From the IMG/VR virus record IMGVR_UViG_3300045049_000339, positions 43,717 through 107,716 of that record: a stretch of 64,000 nucleotides of DNA, one strand, 5' to 3'. The notes under the pieces were generated by a model. That model searched no databases. It was not told the DNA's origin and saw only the letters and a list, made by a program, of their open reading frames with translations. Shown piece by piece: positions 7,967 to 17,410 of this stretch. The stretch comes from a virus. How positions within the stretch are numbered: position 1 is the stretch's first letter; each line of letters begins with the position of its first letter. A program made the position numbers and the translations under genes.

Positions 7967-8428
7967 GTGCGGAAAATGAACGATCTGATCAACGCCTACT
8001 ACTTCGACTTCCAGGGCACTCTCGTTGACGTGCGCGGAATCCGTCACCTCTTGGAGACCACCCCCAAGCGGTACGACTCGTTCCACTACGCCACGGCAAG
8101 CTGCCCGCCGATCTCGTGGGTGGCGTCCGAGGCCCGCAGGGCGCATGAAGAGGGCTTCGCGGTGCTCCTGGGCACCGGTATGACCGAGCGCTTCCGGCCC
8201 CTGGTGAACTTCTGGCTGGCCAGCCACGAGGTGCATGTGGACGACCTCCAGATGCGCCCCGACGATGACTTCTGCAAGGACTTCATCCTGAAGAACCGCA
8301 TGCTGAGGCGGTGGCAGAACACTCACCGCTTCGTTCACGCGTACGACGACAACCCGGCCGTGATCGAGCACGTCTGGGCAGCAGCGAATATCCCGCACAC
8401 GACCGTGCCGGGATGGGGAGAAGGATAG
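7967..8428 (+). CDS. HAD-family phosphatase resembling the phage PNKP 3'-phosphatase domain
   Basis: YFDFQGTLVDV (motif I variant), LGTG, LQMRPDDD, K, AYDDNP motifs. Confidence 0.75.
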   Translation: MRKMNDLINAYYFDFQGTLVDVRGIRHLLETTPKRYDSFHYATASCPPISWVASEARRAHEEGFAVLLGTGMTERFRPLVNFWLASHEVHVDDLQMRPDDDFCKDFILKNRMLRRWQNTHRFVHAYDDNPAVIEHVWAAANIPHTTVPGWGEG

Positions 8429-9867: not shown

Positions 9868-10620
9868 ATGAAGCTCCACCAGCTCATTGCGAAGCAGGGC
9901 AAGGTCGCCGCACGCGTGACCAACGCCGCCAGCGTCATCCACAAGGCGTCGCAGAAGCCCGCTCTGTTCACGGGCGTCAGCATCACCTACGAGCCGCTGG
10001 CCACCAACGAGAACGACGTCTCCGCGCAGAAGCCGCCGGAGGGCAACTCCGTCCAGCTCTACGCGACCAAGGAGCTGGGCAAGCTCCGCGAGCTGCTCAC
10101 CGAGTTGTACGACGTCAACGCGACGCGCGACTGGTCGAACATGGTCGCCCGTGGCACCGTCAAGGTCGGTGACAAGGTCATCCTCTCGGACGTGCCGGTC
10201 CCGTTCCTGCTGTTCCTCAAGCTGGAGCTGAACCGCCTCCGCACCGAGTTCTCCGCCATCCCGGTCCTGGACCCCTCCAAGGACTGGAAGGTGGACACGG
10301 AGAACGGCGGCTACAAGACCGAGACCACCTGGCAGCACAGCACCCGGCGCGTCAAGAAGGTGCTGGAGCGCTCCCCGGCCACGGACAAGCACCAGGCCGT
10401 GACGGAGGTCTACGAGGAGGAAGTGCCGGTCGCGAGGAAGGAGACCACCAACTTCTCCGGCGCCCTGAGCCGCGTGGACCGCGATGCCCTGATCCGCCAG
10501 GTCGACCTGCTCTTCGACGCCGTCACCGAGGCGGTCGAGGAGGCCAACACGGTCGAGGTCGTGGACATGTCCGTCGGCAAGCCCATCTTCGACTTCCTTC
10601 TGGCCCCGCTGACCCGCTAG
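9868..10620 (+). CDS. Hypothetical protein (helical with long beta-hairpin), linked to a downstream structured RNA
   Basis: 250 aa; very strong codon bias; RBS GAGG; function not recognisable. Confidence 0.9.
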   Translation: MKLHQLIAKQGKVAARVTNAASVIHKASQKPALFTGVSITYEPLATNENDVSAQKPPEGNSVQLYATKELGKLRELLTELYDVNATRDWSNMVARGTVKVGDKVILSDVPVPFLLFLKLELNRLRTEFSAIPVLDPSKDWKVDTENGGYKTETTWQHSTRRVKKVLERSPATDKHQAVTEVYEEEVPVARKETTNFSGALSRVDRDALIRQVDLLFDAVTEAVEEANTVEVVDMSVGKPIFDFLLAPLTR

Positions 10621-10633
10621 GGTCTCAAGAACT

Positions 10634-10720
10634 GGTGCTCCGGGTGCACGGGTCCTAGTAAGACGGATCGGCCCTTGTTTGTCCAGCGGTGGGGTTCACT
10701 GACCGCCTGGAGCACCTCCA
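10634..10720 (+). ncRNA. Structured RNA with 11-bp terminal stem and TCCA end
   Basis: GGTGCTCCGGG/CCTGGAGCACC followed by TCCA. Confidence 0.45.
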
Positions 10721-10767
10721 CAGACTCCCGGTTGAGCGACCGGGTCTGCACCCGCAGGGTGCGGAAA

Positions 10768-10840
10768 GCTAACAACTGAATATCAACATCAGCCGCCGTC
10801 GCAACGGTGGCATCAAGCTGAAGCTCTCGCTCAAGCTGAA
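10768..10840 (+). repeat. Phased hexamer repeat tract (NNT[C/G]AA) interrupted by an 18-nt hairpin
   Basis: ACTGAA TATCAA CATCAG [CCGCCGTCGCAACGGTGG] CATCAA GCTGAA GCTCTC GCTCAA GCTGAA. Confidence 0.7.
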
Positions 10841-10842
10841 GC

Positions 10843-10989
10843 GTCTCGGCAAGGCGTTGATCGAAGTGCGCTGTCCCATCAGGAGACGTCGGTTCGAATC
10901 CGACTCAGGGGACTACGATCCCTGGTGGTGTAGTGGAAGCATTGCCTGGTTTCTCAAATCAAGGCAGCGCCCACCGTGCAACGTCAGAC
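10843..10989 (+). ncRNA. Rod-shaped RNA capped by a circularly permuted tRNA-like domain
   Basis: T arm 10888-10904, loop-closed acceptor 10905-10925, D arm 10928-10942; nested helices ATCAGG/CCTGGT, GCGCTGTC/GGCAGCGC, GGCGTTG/CAACGTC, GTCT/AGAC. Confidence 0.8.
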
Positions 10990-11000
10990 CGCAGAATGAC

Positions 11001-11074
11001 ATTGGAATAGCGCAGCTTGGCAGCGCGTCAGTCTCTGGTACTGAAGATCGTCGGTTCAAATCCGACTTCCAAAA
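11001..11074 (+). tRNA. tRNA-Gln(CTG)
   Basis: TCAGT-CTCTGGT-ACTGA anticodon arm; TTGGAA/TTCCAA acceptor with 1:72 mismatch. Confidence 0.82.
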
Positions 11075-11118
11075 ACATTCTATGGGTGGTCCCCGGAGGT
11101 TACCGGGGGCCACCTCCC

Positions 11119-12530: not shown

Positions 12531-13196
12531 GTGAACGATCGACCAGACCCAGGCGGGGTCCGGGCCAACCTGTTCCAGGCAACCCGGACCTCGTGGCGTT
12601 TGTCCGAGCATCTCGAATCCCTTATTACTGAGCGTGTTTCACCTCCCCCCGGCCCCAGCGGTGGTCACCGCAAGCCGGGCTCCAAGGCACCCTGGAATTC
12701 AGCCGCCGCAGAACTCGTCTTCGATCTCCGCTTCCTGGCACGGCAACTCGAAGAAGACCTGCGTGTACGTGTGACTGGCGGCCACATTCAGCGCGGCATT
12801 AGTGACCGCAATACCCAGCTCTCGTTGTGGGCGCTGGCCGACCTCGCCGTCATGGCGGCCGATTCCGACGTGGCCGTCACCCTCGTGCGCCTCGGTGGCT
12901 GGCTGGAGCGTGCACGCCCCGTCGTCGGCGAGACCGAGCCCCTGCGCCGCGTGCCACGCGTGCAGGGCTACGTGGAGCCTCGCTGCCCGTGGTGCGGCTA
13001 CTGCACTCTGCGCTGCAAGCTCAACGCTGGAATCCTCTTCTGTATCAACCCTTCGTGCACCGACCACGAAGGCAGGCGCCCCCTCGGTGTCATCGAGGTG
13101 GACATGGCTCTCCGTGACGTCGTACTCCGCTGGCAGGACGACACCTACGGAATCCCTCAGCACACGATTGAAGCCGTCTATGCGGGGGCAGCATGA
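12531..13196 (+). CDS. Putative transcriptional regulator with C-terminal zinc ribbon
   Basis: CPWCGYCTLRC...CINPSC; coupled to a downstream HTH-like gene. Confidence 0.6.
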   Translation: MNDRPDPGGVRANLFQATRTSWRLSEHLESLITERVSPPPGPSGGHRKPGSKAPWNSAAAELVFDLRFLARQLEEDLRVRVTGGHIQRGISDRNTQLSLWALADLAVMAADSDVAVTLVRLGGWLERARPVVGETEPLRRVPRVQGYVEPRCPWCGYCTLRCKLNAGILFCINPSCTDHEGRRPLGVIEVDMALRDVVLRWQDDTYGIPQHTIEAVYAGAA

Positions 13197-13465: not shown

Positions 13466-13815
13466 AACCGACCATTGGCCGGGTCGTGCACTACCGCAGT
13501 CACGGCAGTGCGGACGGCACGTACAAGCCGGAGTGCCGCGCGGCCATCATCACGGCCGTCAAGGGCCACCACGAAGAGCACGACCGCCGCATCTGGGTCG
13601 TCGACCTCACCGTGTTCAACCCCGAGGGGTTCTTCCTCAAGGACAACGCGCGCCAGGACGAGGGGCACGAGACGCCGGGAGATCCGGACTGCGAGTACGA
13701 CGGGCGCCACGACGAGCAGCCGTTCCGGTACTGCGCCTGCGGCTGGCGTGAGGCCGCCATGCACGGAGGGACTTGGCACTGGGTTGAACGCGAACCCGAA
13801 ACCGGAGACGAGTAG
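13462..13815 (+). CDS. Phage hypothetical protein
   Basis: MKPTIGRVVHY...CRAAIITAV...VDLTVFNPEG...GTWHW; translationally coupled. Confidence 0.75.
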   Translation: MKPTIGRVVHYRSHGSADGTYKPECRAAIITAVKGHHEEHDRRIWVVDLTVFNPEGFFLKDNARQDEGHETPGDPDCEYDGRHDEQPFRYCACGWREAAMHGGTWHWVEREPETGDE

Positions 13816-14267
13816 TGCTAACCCTAGTCCTTTCAGACTGGAGTAGTCGCCCTTGTAGTACGGCTCCAAGTGCCACACCAAGGCGGCCTCGCGGGCGCGT
13901 CAAGATCAAAGGCAAGGAGATGACCGCAGCACGTGCAGCCTGGGTCAGCAAGATTGGACCTGTGCCGCCAGGGCTGTGTGTATGTCATCGGTGCGACAAT
14001 CCGTCGTGTTGGGAGATCACGCATCTCTTCCTTGGTACAAATGCGGAGAACCTCGCCGATATGGCGCAAAAAGGCCGTAGTACCTGGGGCGTGAAAAACA
14101 ACACCACAAAACTCACGCCACGGCAGGTCAACGAGATCCGCGCTGCGCTGCGTAGTGGGGTCGCTCAGCGAGACCTTGCCACTGTTTACGGTGTTTGCAA
14201 GTCGACCATCGGCTACATCGGTCGCGGTGAGACGTGGCAGAAGCTACCCGAGGATGAGGAGCCATGA
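13815..14267 (+). CDS. HNH endonuclease with C-terminal HTH
   Basis: VCHRCDNPSCWEITHLFLGTNAENLADMAQKGR; KLTPRQVNEIR...QRDLATVYGV. Confidence 0.85.
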   Translation: MLTLVLSDWSSRPCSTAPSATPRRPRGRVKIKGKEMTAARAAWVSKIGPVPPGLCVCHRCDNPSCWEITHLFLGTNAENLADMAQKGRSTWGVKNNTTKLTPRQVNEIRAALRSGVAQRDLATVYGVCKSTIGYIGRGETWQKLPEDEEP

Positions 14268-14954: not shown

Positions 14955-15116
14955 TGGGTGTCGGAGGAACCGGGGTAAGGAACACGGTTACTTCATTTGA
15001 CTGGATATCAAAAGGTTGTGGGTTCGAGTCCCACCGGCTCCACTTGTGGGGCTGTAGCTCAATCGGTAGAGAAAACGTGCCCGAGTTCACTTTGATATCG
15101 GTTCCCTCGACACCCA
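14955..15116 (+). ncRNA. YrlA-like Y RNA unit 1 with permuted tRNA domain (anticodon-like loop CT-GGA-TA)
   Basis: Outer stem TGGGTGTCGG..GGAACCG/CGGTTCC..TCGACACCCA; GGGTA, CGGTTACTTC and GATAT motifs; arm order anticodon, T, closed acceptor, D. Confidence 0.85.
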
Positions 15117-15123
15117 CAGACTT

Positions 15124-15279
15124 CCTGTCAGGGGTACAGGCAACGGCTACTTCGCTTCGAAATGCGGGTATCTGTGCAAACAGAGTGCGGGTTCGAATCC
15201 CGTCCGGCTCTTCGCTGAGTCGGTAGACGAATTGGCAAAGTCACCTACGTATCCGATGCCGACTTAGACATCTGACAGG
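15124..15279 (+). ncRNA. YrlA-like Y RNA unit 2 with permuted class II tRNA domain (CGA loop, long variable arm)
   Basis: CCTGTCAG/CTGACAGG outer stem; TCTGT-GCAA-ACAGA variable arm; GCGGG-TTCGAAT-CCCGT; CCGGCTC/GAGTCGG; GAC-GAATTGGCAAA-GTC. Confidence 0.85.
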
Positions 15280-15291
15280 GCTAACTTCATA

Positions 15292-15433
15292 TCTGTCCGG
15301 GGTACAGGCTGCGGTTACTTCACCTGTTAAGTGAGAGGTCGCAGGTTCGAATCCTGTCGTGGGGTGATAAGCCCCATGTAGCTCAGTTTGGGAGAGCGCT
15401 AACGTTCCCGCTGCCGCTTCGATATCGGACAGA
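15292..15433 (+). ncRNA. YrlA-like Y RNA unit 3 with permuted tRNA-Asn-like domain (CT-GTT-AA)
   Basis: TCTGTCCG/CGGACAGA outer stem; TTCAC-CTGTTAA-GTGAG; AGGTC; GCAGG-TTCGAAT-CCTGT; CGTGGGG/CCCCATG; GCTC-AGTTTGGGA-GAGC. Confidence 0.88.
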
Positions 15434-15448
15434 ACACACAAACTTCAT

Positions 15449-15589
15449 AGCTGCCTGGGGTAAAGACAACGGTTACTTCCATGCGGAGGAGGTAGCGCAG
15501 GTTCGAATCCTGCCGGGGGCCTACGGGCTCCTGTCGTCTAGCGGCCCAGGACGCCTACGTTTCCGTTATCGCTTTGATATCAGGCAGCT
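15449..15589 (+). ncRNA. YrlA-like Y RNA unit 4 with permuted tRNA-Glu-like body
   Basis: AGCTGCCTG/CAGGCAGCT outer stem; acceptor CGGGGGC-cTACGg-GCTCCTG; D arm TCGTCTAGCGGCCCAGGAC typical of tRNA-Glu. Confidence 0.85.
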
Positions 15590-15727: not shown

Positions 15728-17410
15728 ATGGCCAAGTTTAACCAGAAGACCCGTACCTGGGAGAACCAGGGAGGTTCGGCCTTTCCCGCCGCAGGAACGA
15801 AGCGGCAGACCACCACGACCACGAACCACACCGGCCGTGCCGTGTGGAACCTGGACGACAAGACCAACCTGTTCTTCCGCGCCACGTCCGCCTTCGCCGG
15901 TCAGGACACGTACTACGAGAAAGGCGCCAAGCGCGACGCCGAGGCCATCGCCTTGGTCCGAAAGCTCGCTATCGGCGACTGGGACTGGACGGCGAAGTTC
16001 CTCGTCTGGCTGCGCGCCGAGGGCAACATGCGCACCGCGCCGGTCATGCTGGCTGTCGAGGCAGTTCGTGCACGCCTGGAGAAGAAGCTGCACCCGGCTG
16101 CCGGTGAGATGTCTCACCGTGCGCTCATCGCGGCTGTTCTCCAGCGCGCGGATGAGCCGGGCGAGATGCTCGCCTACTACGAGAACGTCGTCGGCCGCAC
16201 CATGCCGAAGGCGATCAAGCGTGGTATCGGTGACGCGGCCAAGCGCATGTACAACGAGCGCAACTTCCTGCGGTACGACAGTTCGTCCAAGGCCATCCGT
16301 TTCGGCGGCGTCGCCGAGATGGCTCAGATGCCGAAGACGCACGGCTGGCAGTCCGACCTGATCACCTACGCCATTGGTGAGCAGCACCACCGTGAGCAGG
16401 ACATCCCTGACACGTTGGCGGCACTTCGTGCACGCAATGAGCTGAACAAGATGGACGCCAGCGACCGTCACGTTTTCGCGAAGAGCGCACTGGGCGGCCA
16501 CATCATCAACCGCACCAAGCTGGACCTGGCCATGGCCGGGCAGTGGGAGTGGTTCATGAGTTGGCTCGGTGATGCGAAGGGTGCCAAGGCCATCACGACG
16601 AAGGAGAAGTGGACGTTCGCCGCCCAGCGCATGGGCATCATGGCGGTCGTCCGCAACCTCCGGAACTTCGACGAGGCCGGTCTCAAGACGGGCGACAGCA
16701 TCGTCACCGAGATCAGTGGTCGGCTCACGAACGAGGAGCAGATCGCGAAGTCCCGCATGTTCCCGTTCCGGTTCTTCACGGCGCACTTGCAGCTCAAGTC
16801 CGTCACGTGGGCGGCCGGTCTGGAGGTGGCGCTTCAGCACTCGCTCCAGAACCTTCCGGAGCTGCCGGGCCGGACGCTGATCCTCGTCGACACCTCGGGG
16901 TCGATGCAGCAGAAGCTCTCGGCCAAGTCCGAGATGTCCTACGCCCAGGCCGCCGCACTGTTCGGCTGTGCCCTGAAGATCAAGAACCCGGACGGGGTCA
17001 ACCTGTGGGGGTTCGCCGACGGGCAGTTCGAGGCGCAGGCCACCACGGGTCACAGCGTTCTGCGCTGTGCCGAGGAGTTCTGCCGCCAGAACGGCCTGGT
17101 CGGTCACGGAACGCAGATGGAGGCGGCCGTCCGTGCCACGTACGCGGGGCACGACCGAGTCATCATCATCTCCGACATGCAGGCGTTCCCGACCGGCGGT
17201 TACAGCCGGTACGGGTACAGCTACATGACCGGTGACGTCGCTGGGGCTGTTCCGGCGCACATCCCGGTATACGGTTTCAACCTGGCCAGCGGCTCCACCA
17301 CACCGCTGGGCAAGGGCAACCGGCACAGCCTTGGTGGCCTCTCGGATGTGACGTTCAAGCTGATCCCTCAGCTTGAGAAGGTCGGCCGGGGTTCGTGGCC
17401 CTGGGAGTAA
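15728..17410 (+). CDS. rsr: TROVE-domain Ro60/Rsr RNA-binding protein with C-terminal vWA domain
   Basis: WLRAEGNMRTAP, LQRADEPGEMLAYY, PKAIKRG, MAVVRNLRNF, SRMFPFRF, ILVDTSGSM (MIDAS), IIISDMQ; AAGGAGG RBS. Confidence 0.95.
   Translation: MAKFNQKTRTWENQGGSAFPAAGTKRQTTTTTNHTGRAVWNLDDKTNLFFRATSAFAGQDTYYEKGAKRDAEAIALVRKLAIGDWDWTAKFLVWLRAEGNMRTAPVMLAVEAVRARLEKKLHPAAGEMSHRALIAAVLQRADEPGEMLAYYENVVGRTMPKAIKRGIGDAAKRMYNERNFLRYDSSSKAIRFGGVAEMAQMPKTHGWQSDLITYAIGEQHHREQDIPDTLAALRARNELNKMDASDRHVFAKSALGGHIINRTKLDLAMAGQWEWFMSWLGDAKGAKAITTKEKWTFAAQRMGIMAVVRNLRNFDEAGLKTGDSIVTEISGRLTNEEQIAKSRMFPFRFFTAHLQLKSVTWAAGLEVALQHSLQNLPELPGRTLILVDTSGSMQQKLSAKSEMSYAQAAALFGCALKIKNPDGVNLWGFADGQFEAQATTGHSVLRCAEEFCRQNGLVGHGTQMEAAVRATYAGHDRVIIISDMQAFPTGGYSRYGYSYMTGDVAGAVPAHIPVYGFNLASGSTTPLGKGNRHSLGGLSDVTFKLIPQLEKVGRGSWPWE

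What the first reader, a model, noticed from the sequence alone, without database searches (positions are those of the whole stretch)
10773..10860. The hexamer tract also reads as a start-less frame encoding an amphipathic beta-hairpin
Seen: after TAA (10770-10772) the frame reads QLNINISRRRNGGIKLKLSLKLKRLGKAL, almost all in preferred codons (CTG, ATC, AAC, CGC, AAG, CTC). There is no ATG/GTG or RBS, and the 18-nt hairpin insertion preserves both the 6-nt phase and the frame. A start-less message next to a tRNA mimic recalls tmRNA logic. Alternatively the periodicity is purely a protein-binding signal and the peptide is coincidental.
Basis: partly seen in the sequence, partly recalled or inferred. 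Interest (0 to 1): 0.75.

Follow-up and report, generated by a model that had tools for sequence, protein, structure and literature searches.

The report
Six-base repeats in tRNA-mimic RNA
The "hidden peptide" is a by-product of a conserved six-base RNA repeat (A-R-N-Y-U-N) inside an undescribed phage non-coding RNA that always follows a gene of unknown function (DUF7873) and carries a back-to-front tRNA look-alike; it is not a protein-tagging message.

Summary
The sequence facts hold. The frame reads QLNINISRRRNGGIKLKLSLKLKRLGKAL, has no ATG or GTG, and the six-base phasing is far above chance (0 of 5000 shuffles). The open frame itself is not unusual, and it runs on to 11141 through tRNA-Gln.

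The tract belongs to a conserved non-coding RNA that follows DUF7873 genes. Of 129 distinct loci, 120 have phased hexamers plus a T arm downstream. A model built from 32 relatives, window excluded, hits 10811-10957 at 65.9 bits.

The repeat is A-R-N-Y-U-N, so one frame must give (K/R/N/S)(L/F).

- All 85 relatives carry a 1- or 2-nt spacer that breaks the frame.
- The first in-frame stop lies 6 to 212 codons downstream.
- "Arg" is AGR in 17 of 17 cases, against 5 of 207 in the adjacent genes.
- A start codon with a Shine-Dalgarno (SD) site occurs in 2 of 85.

The "S-L" core UCGCUC(AA) is complementary to the P1 loop UUGAGCGA, and this pairing covaries across relatives.

Most likely the tract is a recognition surface for a protein, perhaps DUF7873; no binding was shown. 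The closest known relative is the YrlA type of Y RNA. This scan had already found the same RNA in at least 38 other genomes.

The parts
9868..10620 (+). DUF7873 gene (250 aa), the constant upstream partner of the RNA
   Evidence: Pfam PF25283, E 1.5e-67. 164 homologs. AF2 model with pLDDT 92.9 and no clear fold match.
10727..10744 (+). Hairpin P1 (CCCGG / CCGGG). Its 8-nt loop UUGAGCGA (10732-10739) is complementary to the tract core.
   Evidence: Sequence. Relatives conserve the 'AAGAyUCCCCG-UUGAGCG-CGGGG' layout. Loop-core complementarity and covariation.
10746..10764 (+). Hairpin P2 (8 bp, GCA loop)
   Evidence: Sequence and fold. A GC-rich second hairpin sits at the same place in relatives.
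10765..10790 (+). Hexamer tract 1, degenerate in this window (AAGCUA, CAACUG, AAUAUC, AACAUC); relatives have four A-R-N-Y-U-N units
   Evidence: Mean P(unpaired) is 0.78.
10792..10811 (+). Simple hairpin (GCCGCCG-UCGCAA-CGGUGGC) where most relatives carry a first permuted tRNA-like module
   Evidence: Comparison with L010, L011, L015 and others (module), with L003, L017, L081 and L282 (hairpin), and with L271 (7-nt spacer).
10815..10826 (+). Hexamer tract 2, left part: AAGCUG AAGCUC, the two best conserved hexamers of the family
   Evidence: Position 1 is A in 71 of 72 cases, position 5 is T in 70 of 72, position 4 is Y in 71 of 72. The CM R1 match starts at 10811.
10827..10834 (+).
   Evidence: Within-locus versus cross-locus duplex test, p<0.0003. 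GAGCR/YGCUC covariation, Fisher p=0.0028. Compensated unusual cores in L029, L033, L087 and L134.
10833..10844 (+). Hexamer tract 2, right part: AAGCUG AAGCGU. It follows the core with a 0-nt spacer only in this window.
   Evidence: The spacer is 1 nt in 65 relatives and 2 nt in 20.
10859..10866 (+). Conserved box GAUCGAAG (AUCGA core), reminiscent of the YrlA 5' motif GNCGAAN0-1G
   Evidence: Invariant columns in A2 and A5. The motif is described in PMC4201824.
10869..10969 (+). Closing stem S (10869-10875 with 10963-10969). It encloses the T arm (10888-10904), the loop-closed acceptor stem (10905-10925), the D arm (10928-10942) and hexamer-like tract 3 (10943-10962). Together these form the permuted, anticodon-less tRNA-like module.
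   Evidence: RNAalifold and pair counts: 93.9% of cells paired against 59.7% in shuffles and about 40% when slid; 20 of 22 pairs have compensatory changes. R1 hit of 65.9 bits.
   Evidence: ARAGORN and Rfam. Relatives.
11085..11114 (+). 12-bp terminal hairpin with loop AGGUUA, the counterpart of the family's 3' hairpin (loops GGAUAU or GGGUAA)
   Evidence: Sequence. Relatives.

Best explanation
The stretch 10773-10860 is not a message. It is the central, largely single-stranded part of a non-coding RNA of roughly 300-400 nt (about 10721-11114) that is transcribed behind the DUF7873 gene. The RNA belongs to a widespread, apparently undescribed family.

Shown here:
- The tract is built from phased A-R-N-Y-U-N hexamers. 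Positions 1 and 5 are nearly invariant, and positions 3 and 6 are free.
- The hexamers are interrupted by a 6-nt core, UCGCUC. The core base-pairs with a GAGCG element upstream, which in this window is the whole loop of hairpin P1 (UUGAGCGA : UCGCUCAA).
- This helix closes a domain in which tract 1 and the left part of tract 2 face each other around a variable cap. The cap is a tRNA-like module in most relatives, a plain hairpin here, and 7 nt in L271.
- A covarying stem follows downstream and carries a circularly permuted, anticodon-less tRNA mimic of the YrlA type.
The 'amphipathic beta-strand' is therefore an automatic by-product of the repeat.

Inferred, not shown: the phased hexamers are repeated contact points for a multi-subunit or multi-site protein. 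DUF7873, the only constant neighbour, is the obvious candidate. The tRNA-like head would recruit a tRNA-recognising partner, by analogy with Ro60/Y RNA particles.
For: Family membership:
- 120 of 129 distinct DUF7873 loci (phages with GC 25-70%, and metagenomes) have phased hexamer arrays plus a T arm within about 800 nt downstream. The same holds in Streptomyces and other bacterial chromosomes.
- CM R1, built from 32 relatives without the window, hits 10811-10957 over its full length at 65.9 bits, E 1e-21.
- Stems T, acceptor, D and S covary: 93.9% of cells paired against 59.7% in shuffles.

Hexamers are an RNA-level signal:
- There are 320 phased perfect hexamers in the downstream regions, against 23 in shuffles and 24 in the genes.
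- In high-GC relatives the 'Arg' positions are AGR in 17 of 17 cases, while the adjacent genes use AGR for 5 of 207 Arg codons (P about 3e-28). TTA is 2 of 20 against 0 of 363.
- Codon 1 is Asn or Ser in 41 of 170 cases.

No reading frame:
- The spacer after the core is 1 nt (65 loci) or 2 nt (20 loci), and 0 only in this window.
- The first in-frame stop lies 6 to 212 codons downstream.
- The distance from tract 1 to tract 2 is spread evenly over mod 3.
- L271, which is 30 of 32 identical to the window's tract, has three arrays in three different frames.
- An in-frame ATG or GTG with an SD site occurs in 2 of 85 loci.

Core pairing:
- Within-locus complementarity beats cross-locus complementarity (p<0.0003 for the core, 0.34 for the left hexamers).
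- GAGCR/YGCUC pairs are 17 G-C, 9 A-U, 4 G-U and 3 A-C (Fisher p 0.0028).

No tmRNA was found by ARAGORN or Rfam.
Against: - There are no expression data for this phage, so the transcript ends and even transcription of the tract are inferred from relatives and gene order.
- Protein binding to the hexamers was not shown for DUF7873 or any other protein.
- The free positions (3 and 6) coincide with codon wobble positions, and position 3 of the second hexamer is a purine in 33 of 36 relatives. That is also what Lys/Arg conservation would give.
- 17 of 36 relatives do have a stop within 10 codons, so a very short translated tag in some members cannot be formally excluded.
- The tracts are partly self-complementary. 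Within-locus tract 1 / tract 2 duplexes are slightly better than cross-locus ones (-6.4 against -5.4 kcal/mol, p 0.011). Part of the signal may therefore be RNA-RNA pairing and not protein contact.
- An 8-nt hairpin loop cannot easily pair along its whole length, so the exact geometry of the P1-core contact is uncertain.
Confidence: 0.8

Rival explanations
1. tmRNA-like start-less message: a ribosome is loaded onto the tract with the help of the adjacent tRNA mimic and adds a (K/R)(L/F)-rich tag.
For: The frame is open and start-less. In one frame relatives also read [KRNS][LF][KR][LF][SL][LQ], and 17 of 36 have a stop within 10 codons. Many relatives have NCCA just after the acceptor 3' strand of a tRNA-like module, as in permuted two-piece tmRNA genes (my knowledge).
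Against: - The acceptor stem is closed by a 7-nt loop (ACUACGA) with no CCA in this window.
- Pair 3:70 is C-G, not G:U.
- There is no stop for 122 codons, and the frame crosses tRNA-Gln.
- The frame is broken by 1-2 nt in all 85 relatives, and stop positions are scattered from 6 to 212 codons.
- AGR, TTA and CTA are used where the genes never use them.
- In this window the tract lies upstream of the only tRNA-like module, not behind its 5' acceptor strand.
- ARAGORN and Rfam find no tmRNA.
Confidence: 0.02
2. The hexamer tracts are the two strands of one regularly mismatched RNA stem that carries the first tRNA-like module or hairpin, so the periodicity reflects RNA-RNA pairing and not protein contacts. 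This was proposed by earlier follow-ups of this scan on other genomes.
For: The reverse complement of A-R-N-Y-U-N is again A-R-N-Y-U-N-like, so two arrays can pair at 4-5 of 6 positions. Within-locus tract 1 / tract 2 duplexes are slightly more stable than cross-locus ones (p 0.011). The GAGCR:YGCUC helix places the two tracts opposite each other. The cap between them is freely exchangeable: module, hairpin or 7 nt.
Against: - No fixed-register covariation was found in 30 non-redundant loci. The best antidiagonal has only 54% pairable cells, against 94% in the real stems.
- The strands are unequal, four hexamers against two.
- In this window the tracts pair no better than shuffles (-3.6 against -3.2 +/- 1.5 kcal/mol).
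- Tract 1 has P(unpaired) 0.78.
- The invariant positions (A1, U5) are not needed for a helix as such.
Confidence: 0.15
3. An ordinary small ORF started at a non-canonical codon: CTG at 10776, behind the purine patch GGAAAG at 10763-10768.
For: An in-frame CTG lies 7 nt behind a weak SD-like patch. 17 of 29 codons are the top synonyms.
Against: The patch is the 3' strand of hairpin P2. The ORF would have to run 122 codons through two tRNA genes. Neither the start nor the frame is conserved.
Confidence: 0.02

Closest known systems
YrlA-type bacterial and phage Y RNAs bound by Ro60/Rsr (Rfam RF02553; Chen et al. 2014, PMC4201824)
   Same: - A circularly permuted tRNA mimic in the order T arm, loop-closed acceptor stem, D arm, with a long closing stem in place of the anticodon arm.
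- A CGA-containing box on the 5' side of that stem.
- The YrlA model aligns over its full length to the second module of relative L011 (32.7 bits, E 2.8e-5).
- Encoded beside a protein gene, and found in phages next to tRNA genes.
   Different: - The score is below Rfam's gathering score (69). The window itself has no YrlA hit at E<=10.
- The constant neighbour is DUF7873, not Ro60. TROVE occurs in 1 of 10 near-complete related phage genomes.
- This phage has a separate Ro60 gene with its own Y-RNA-like units. Those match only the tRNA-like part of my model, not the hexamer/core part.
- The phased A-R-N-Y-U-N arrays, the YGCUC core helix and (in most relatives) a second tRNA-like module have no counterpart in YrlA.
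tmRNA (SsrA), including two-piece tmRNAs from permuted genes
   Same: A tRNA-like domain lies next to a start-less open stretch. The gene order T arm, acceptor 3' strand, (N)CCA, linker, acceptor 5' strand seen in many relatives resembles permuted tmRNA genes (my knowledge).
   Different: - No free CCA end is encoded here.
- There is no G3:U70.
- A full D arm is present.
- There is no conserved resume codon, frame or stop.
- Conservation is at nucleotide level.
- ARAGORN and Rfam do not detect it.
TRAP-binding (G/U)AG repeats of the Bacillus trp leader (my knowledge; not tested here)
   Same: Short conserved nucleotides recur at a fixed spacing of 5-6 nt along an unstructured RNA. In TRAP each repeat is bound by one subunit of an oligomer. 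This is the working model that I infer for the hexamers.
   Different: The motif differs (A..YU. against GAG/UAG). There is no TRAP homolog, binding and oligomer state of DUF7873 are unknown, and the context is a stable ncRNA with tRNA mimics, not an attenuator.

Membership tests
tmRNA | tRNA-like domain whose acceptor stem is formed by free 5' and 3' ends, with a chargeable CCA end | tested here: not met
   Acceptor strands 10905-10911 and 10919-10925 are joined by the 7-nt loop ACUACGA, and no CCA is encoded. Processing of the loop in vivo could not be tested.
tmRNA | G3:U70 alanine identity pair | tested here: not met
   Pair 3:70 is C10921-G10909 (sequence; alignment).
tmRNA | Tag reading frame with a conserved frame and a terminating stop | tested here: not met
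   The window has no stop until 11141. In relatives the stop lies 6 to 212 codons away, and 85 of 85 have a frame-breaking 1- or 2-nt spacer.
tmRNA | Recognised by ARAGORN or the Rfam tmRNA models | tested here: not met
   No tmRNA was found in the window or in 60 related loci.
YrlA-type Y RNA (RF02553) | Permuted tRNA-like domain (T arm, closed acceptor, D arm) on a closing stem | tested here: met
   Covarying helices. All four helices form in the window.
YrlA-type Y RNA (RF02553) | Reaches the Rfam gathering score | tested here: not met
   The window has no hit at E<=10. Relative L011 scores 32.7 bits against a gathering score of 69. 20 related loci give no hit at the gathering threshold.
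YrlA-type Y RNA (RF02553) | Encoded next to, and bound by, Ro60/Rsr | tested here: not met
   Adjacency: the neighbour is DUF7873. The TROVE gene lies 4.7 kb downstream with its own RNA units. TROVE occurs in 1 of 10 related complete phage genomes. Binding is not testable with these tools.
YrlA-type Y RNA (RF02553) | 5' motif GNCGAAN0-1G (PMC4201824) | tested here: inconclusive
   The window has GAUCGAAG at 10859-10866. The family-wide invariant is only AUC(G/A)A.
DUF7873-associated tRNA-mimic RNA (unnamed; defined by this scan) | Lies directly downstream of a DUF7873 gene on the same strand | tested here: met
   (120 of 129 loci).
DUF7873-associated tRNA-mimic RNA (unnamed; defined by this scan) | Two A-R-N-Y-U-N hexamers, YGCUC core, further hexamer(s), AUCGA box, permuted tRNA module | tested here: met
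   CM R1 (window not in the seed) gives 65.9 bits, E 1e-21, model positions 1-184.
DUF7873-associated tRNA-mimic RNA (unnamed; defined by this scan) | Core paired with an upstream GAGCR element | tested here: met
   The window has UUGAGCGA (10732-10739) against UCGCUCAA (10827-10834). Family statistics.
Protein-coding small ORF | Start codon with ribosome-binding site, conserved frame, gene-like synonymous codon use | tested here: not met

The most novel reading that the evidence does not exclude
The phased A-R-N-Y-U-N arrays, held in a loop closed by the GAGCR:YGCUC helix, are a measuring rail that binds a fixed number of DUF7873 protomers (four plus two plus one or two) beside one or two anticodon-less tRNA heads. 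This would be a Ro60-independent ribonucleoprotein class, shared by many phages, Streptomyces and several other phyla, that hands tRNA-recognising enzymes or damaged RNAs to a partner.
Probability: 0.35. Interest if true: 0.75.

Novelty: new variant of a known kind. Interest (0 to 1): 0.45.

Why it matters
It removes a tempting but wrong idea, a second trans-translation-like system in phages, and explains why it looked right: an A-R-N-Y-U-N repeat must translate as an alternating basic/hydrophobic peptide.

It also sharpens the anatomy of a widespread RNA that is not in Rfam 15 and that I found in no paper of the searched library:
- a defined hexamer consensus;
- a core that is a pairing strand with covariation support;
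- a cap position that can be a tRNA mimic, a hairpin or a few bases.

These give direct handles for experiments: which bases to mutate, and which compensatory pairs to test. The experiments would address what DUF7873 and its RNA do in phages and in Streptomyces chromosomes.

Tried and rejected
The closest relatives (P0002-P0007, 54-78% identical proteins) could therefore not be fetched, and the synonymous/indel test could only be done on relatives of about 35-43% protein identity.
- blastn of the gap against the phage collection found no match.
- The first viral scan with the single protein found nothing. The metagenome scan with the seven closest proteins found nothing.
- The 15-mer scan of viral contigs gave mostly chance hits. 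Only L243 and L271 are family members.
- No RNA holder is listed among public runs. The contigs that were laid gave no usable cover of the tract from relatives.
- Complex prediction with four copies of DUF7873 gave no verdict.
- Foldseek against PDB, VIA-align wide and the ESM Atlas gave no convincing fold or family for DUF7873. The best hit was 3kdq at Z 8.9 with rmsd 7.9. PHROGs gave none.
- A fixed-register helix between tract 1 and tract 2 showed no covariation.
- Extension of the GAGCR:YGCUC helix by one pair showed no signal (11 observed against 11.3 expected).
- The pairing partner of the right-hand hexamers was heterogeneous and was not resolved.
- The weak Rfam hits (mir-33, mir-150, Plastid-ycf2, sX9) are chance or tRNA-derived.
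- Literature searches for DUF7873 and for permuted-tRNA or hexamer phage RNAs found nothing relevant. A 2026 preprint on three tRNA-mimic families concerns other motifs.

Full report
**What is there.** The finding lies in the 380-nt gap between a 250-aa gene (9868-10620) and tRNA-Gln (11001) of a 107.7-kb IMG/VR phage record. The frame does not stop at 10860. It runs for 122 codons to 11141, through tRNA-Gln and into tRNA-Arg. Stop-free stretches of 29 codons occurred in every shuffle of the region. Only 17 of 29 codons are the top synonym in this phage's genes. What is far above chance is the six-base register: a score of 38 against 25.1 +/- 2.0, reached by 0 of 5000 shuffles.

**Context.** The upstream gene is a DUF7873 protein (PF25283, E 1.5e-67). 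I collected DUF7873 loci from viral contigs, metagenomes and species genomes.
- In 120 of 129 distinct loci, the 700-800 nt behind the gene hold phased hexamer arrays and a T-arm motif. ARAGORN does not call these tRNAs, and Rfam does not recognise them at its gathering scores.
- The common layout is: one or two 5' hairpins; four hexamers; a circularly permuted tRNA-like module (T arm, acceptor closed by a loop, D arm); two hexamers; a 6-nt core; one or more further hexamers; an AUCGA box; a closing stem around a second permuted module; and a terminal hairpin.
- In the window, as in L003, L017, L081 and some Streptomyces loci, the first module is replaced by a plain hairpin (10792-10811). In L271 it is replaced by 7 nt.
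- The stems of the second module and its closing stem covary strongly. 93.9% of cells are paired, against 59.7% in shuffles and about 40% when partners are slid. 20 of 22 pairs have compensatory changes.
- A covariance model built from 32 relatives without the window hits 10811-10957 over its whole length (65.9 bits, E 1e-21).

The tract is therefore a bona fide part of this RNA family.

**Coding or RNA signal.** The repeat consensus is A-R-N-Y-U-N. In the two best conserved hexamers, position 1 is A in 71 of 72 cases, position 5 is T in 70 of 72, and position 4 is Y in 71 of 72. Phased perfect hexamers number 320 in the downstream regions, against 23 in shuffles and 24 in the genes. That explains the 'amphipathic' look.

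Four tests separate peptide selection from nucleotide selection.
1. *Frame.* The spacer between the core and the next hexamer is 1 nt in 65 relatives and 2 nt in 20. It is 0 only in the window. The distance from tract 1 to tract 2 is spread evenly over the three residues mod 3. L271, whose tract is 30 of 32 identical to the window's, has three arrays in three frames.
2. *Stops.* The first in-frame stop lies 6 to 212 codons downstream, with no preferred place.
3. *Synonyms.* In 17 high-GC loci the 'Arg' positions are AGA or AGG in 17 of 17 cases, although the adjacent genes use these for 5 of 207 Arg codons (P about 3e-28). TTA and CTA appear where the genes have 0 of 363 TTA. A quarter of the 'Lys/Arg' positions are Asn or Ser.
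4. *Starts.* An in-frame ATG or GTG with an SD-like element occurs in 2 of 85 loci.

**tmRNA features.** The features that define tmRNA are also absent. The acceptor stem is closed by ACUACGA without CCA. Pair 3:70 is C-G. ARAGORN and Rfam find no tmRNA.

**The core is a pairing strand.** The 6-nt element that interrupts the hexamers (UCGCUC, the 'S-L' of the peptide) is complementary to a GAGCR element upstream of tract 1.
- Across 64 non-redundant loci, within-locus duplexes between the 5' region and the core window beat cross-locus ones (0 of 5000 and 0 of 3000 permutations reach the observed value). The left hexamers show nothing (p 0.34).
- In 33 loci with a single GAGCR, the variable pair is G-C in 17, A-U in 9, G-U in 4 and A-C in 3 (Fisher p 0.0028).
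- Unusual cores are compensated: GUAGCG/CGCUAC in L029, UAGGGC/GCCCUA in L033, CUUGGA/UCCAAG in L087, and UAGAAGU/ACUUCUA in L134.
- In the window the whole P1 loop UUGAGCGA (10732-10739) is the perfect complement of UCGCUCAA (10827-10834). This also accounts for the window's odd 0-nt spacer.

**What the hexamers do.** This step is inferred. Two readings exist, both already proposed by earlier follow-ups of this scan on other genomes: a docking rail for a protein, or the two strands of a mismatch-studded stem.
- The GAGCR:YGCUC helix does place tract 1 opposite the left part of tract 2. Within-locus tract duplexes are slightly better than cross-locus ones (p 0.011).
- Against the stem reading: there is no fixed-register covariation (best antidiagonal 54% pairable). 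The strands are unequal, four hexamers against two. In the window the tracts pair no better than shuffles.
- I therefore favour repeated protein contacts in an open internal loop. DUF7873 is the candidate because it is the only constant neighbour. A weak extra hint is that 27 of 221 loci also carry phased hexamers just upstream of the DUF7873 start codon (55 hexamers against 7.7 +/- 4.2 in shuffles).
- DUF7873 folds confidently (pLDDT 92.9) but matches no known fold.

**Comparison with known systems.** The closest known family is the YrlA type of Y RNA. Rfam's model aligns over its full length to the second module of relative L011 at 32.7 bits, below the gathering score of 69. It does not hit the window. 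Ro60 is not the partner here. TROVE is present in 1 of 10 near-complete related phage genomes. This phage's own Ro60 gene (15728-17410) has separate Y-RNA-like units that match only the tRNA-like part of my model. I found the DUF7873 RNA neither in Rfam 15 nor in the searched literature.

The same gene-plus-RNA pair was already reported by this scan in at least 38 other genomes. My analysis agrees with those notes and adds the coding test, the hexamer consensus and the core helix.

**Verdict.** The peptide reading is refuted. The tract is a conserved, non-coding recognition and structure element of an undescribed YrlA-like RNA.

Noticed in passing
window 10623-10717: A contig of a close relative in a freshwater-sediment run joins 10622 directly to 10718, with CCC between. 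The 87-nt stem-bounded element right after the DUF7873 stop is therefore an insertion that is absent from that relative. The family RNA proper starts at about 10721 (ACAGACUCCCGG...).
   Followed up: partly
window 15018-15072, 15187-15248, 15341-15407, 15497-15562: Four units upstream of the TROVE/Ro60 gene (15728-17410) match only the permuted tRNA part (model positions 82-163) of my model, at 26-32 bits. They are Y-RNA-like units without hexamers or core. ARAGORN's 'tRNA-SeC' at 14966-15043 overlaps the first unit and is probably a miscall.
   Followed up: partly
90 nt upstream of DUF7873 start codons in related loci (e.g. L003, L082, L087, L097): 27 of 221 loci carry two or more phased A-R-N-Y-T-N hexamers at or near the gene's ribosome-binding site (55 hexamers against 7.7 +/- 4.2 in shuffles). 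This hints at autoregulation by a hexamer-binding factor. It is not seen in this window.
   Followed up: partly
window 11085-11114, and the 3' ends of related loci: A long GC-rich hairpin with a conserved loop (GGAUAU, GGGUAA, or AGGUUA here) ends the RNA unit. In the window, L003, L081 and L271, a tRNA gene is inserted between the second module and this hairpin. In the window no U-run follows, and tRNA-Arg starts 5 nt later.
   Followed up: no
L282-L360 (Streptomyces and other bacterial chromosomes): DUF7873 plus the RNA occurs in hundreds of species genomes: at least 586 matches, mostly Streptomyces, also Kitasatospora, Frankia, Acidobacteriota and Planctomycetota. Within Streptomyces the first tRNA-like module is present (L298, L303) or replaced by a hairpin (L282, L283). 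A/T-rich hexamers such as AAUCUC AGACUC are kept.
   Followed up: partly
window 7967-8428 and 13815-14267: A HAD/PNKP-type phosphatase-like ORF (26.7 bits, just under Pfam's cut-off) and an HNH endonuclease ORF lie in the same tRNA-rich region.
   Followed up: no
window 13011-13160: A weak match to model R1 (9.1 bits, E 0.044, model positions 18-184); probably chance.
   Followed up: no
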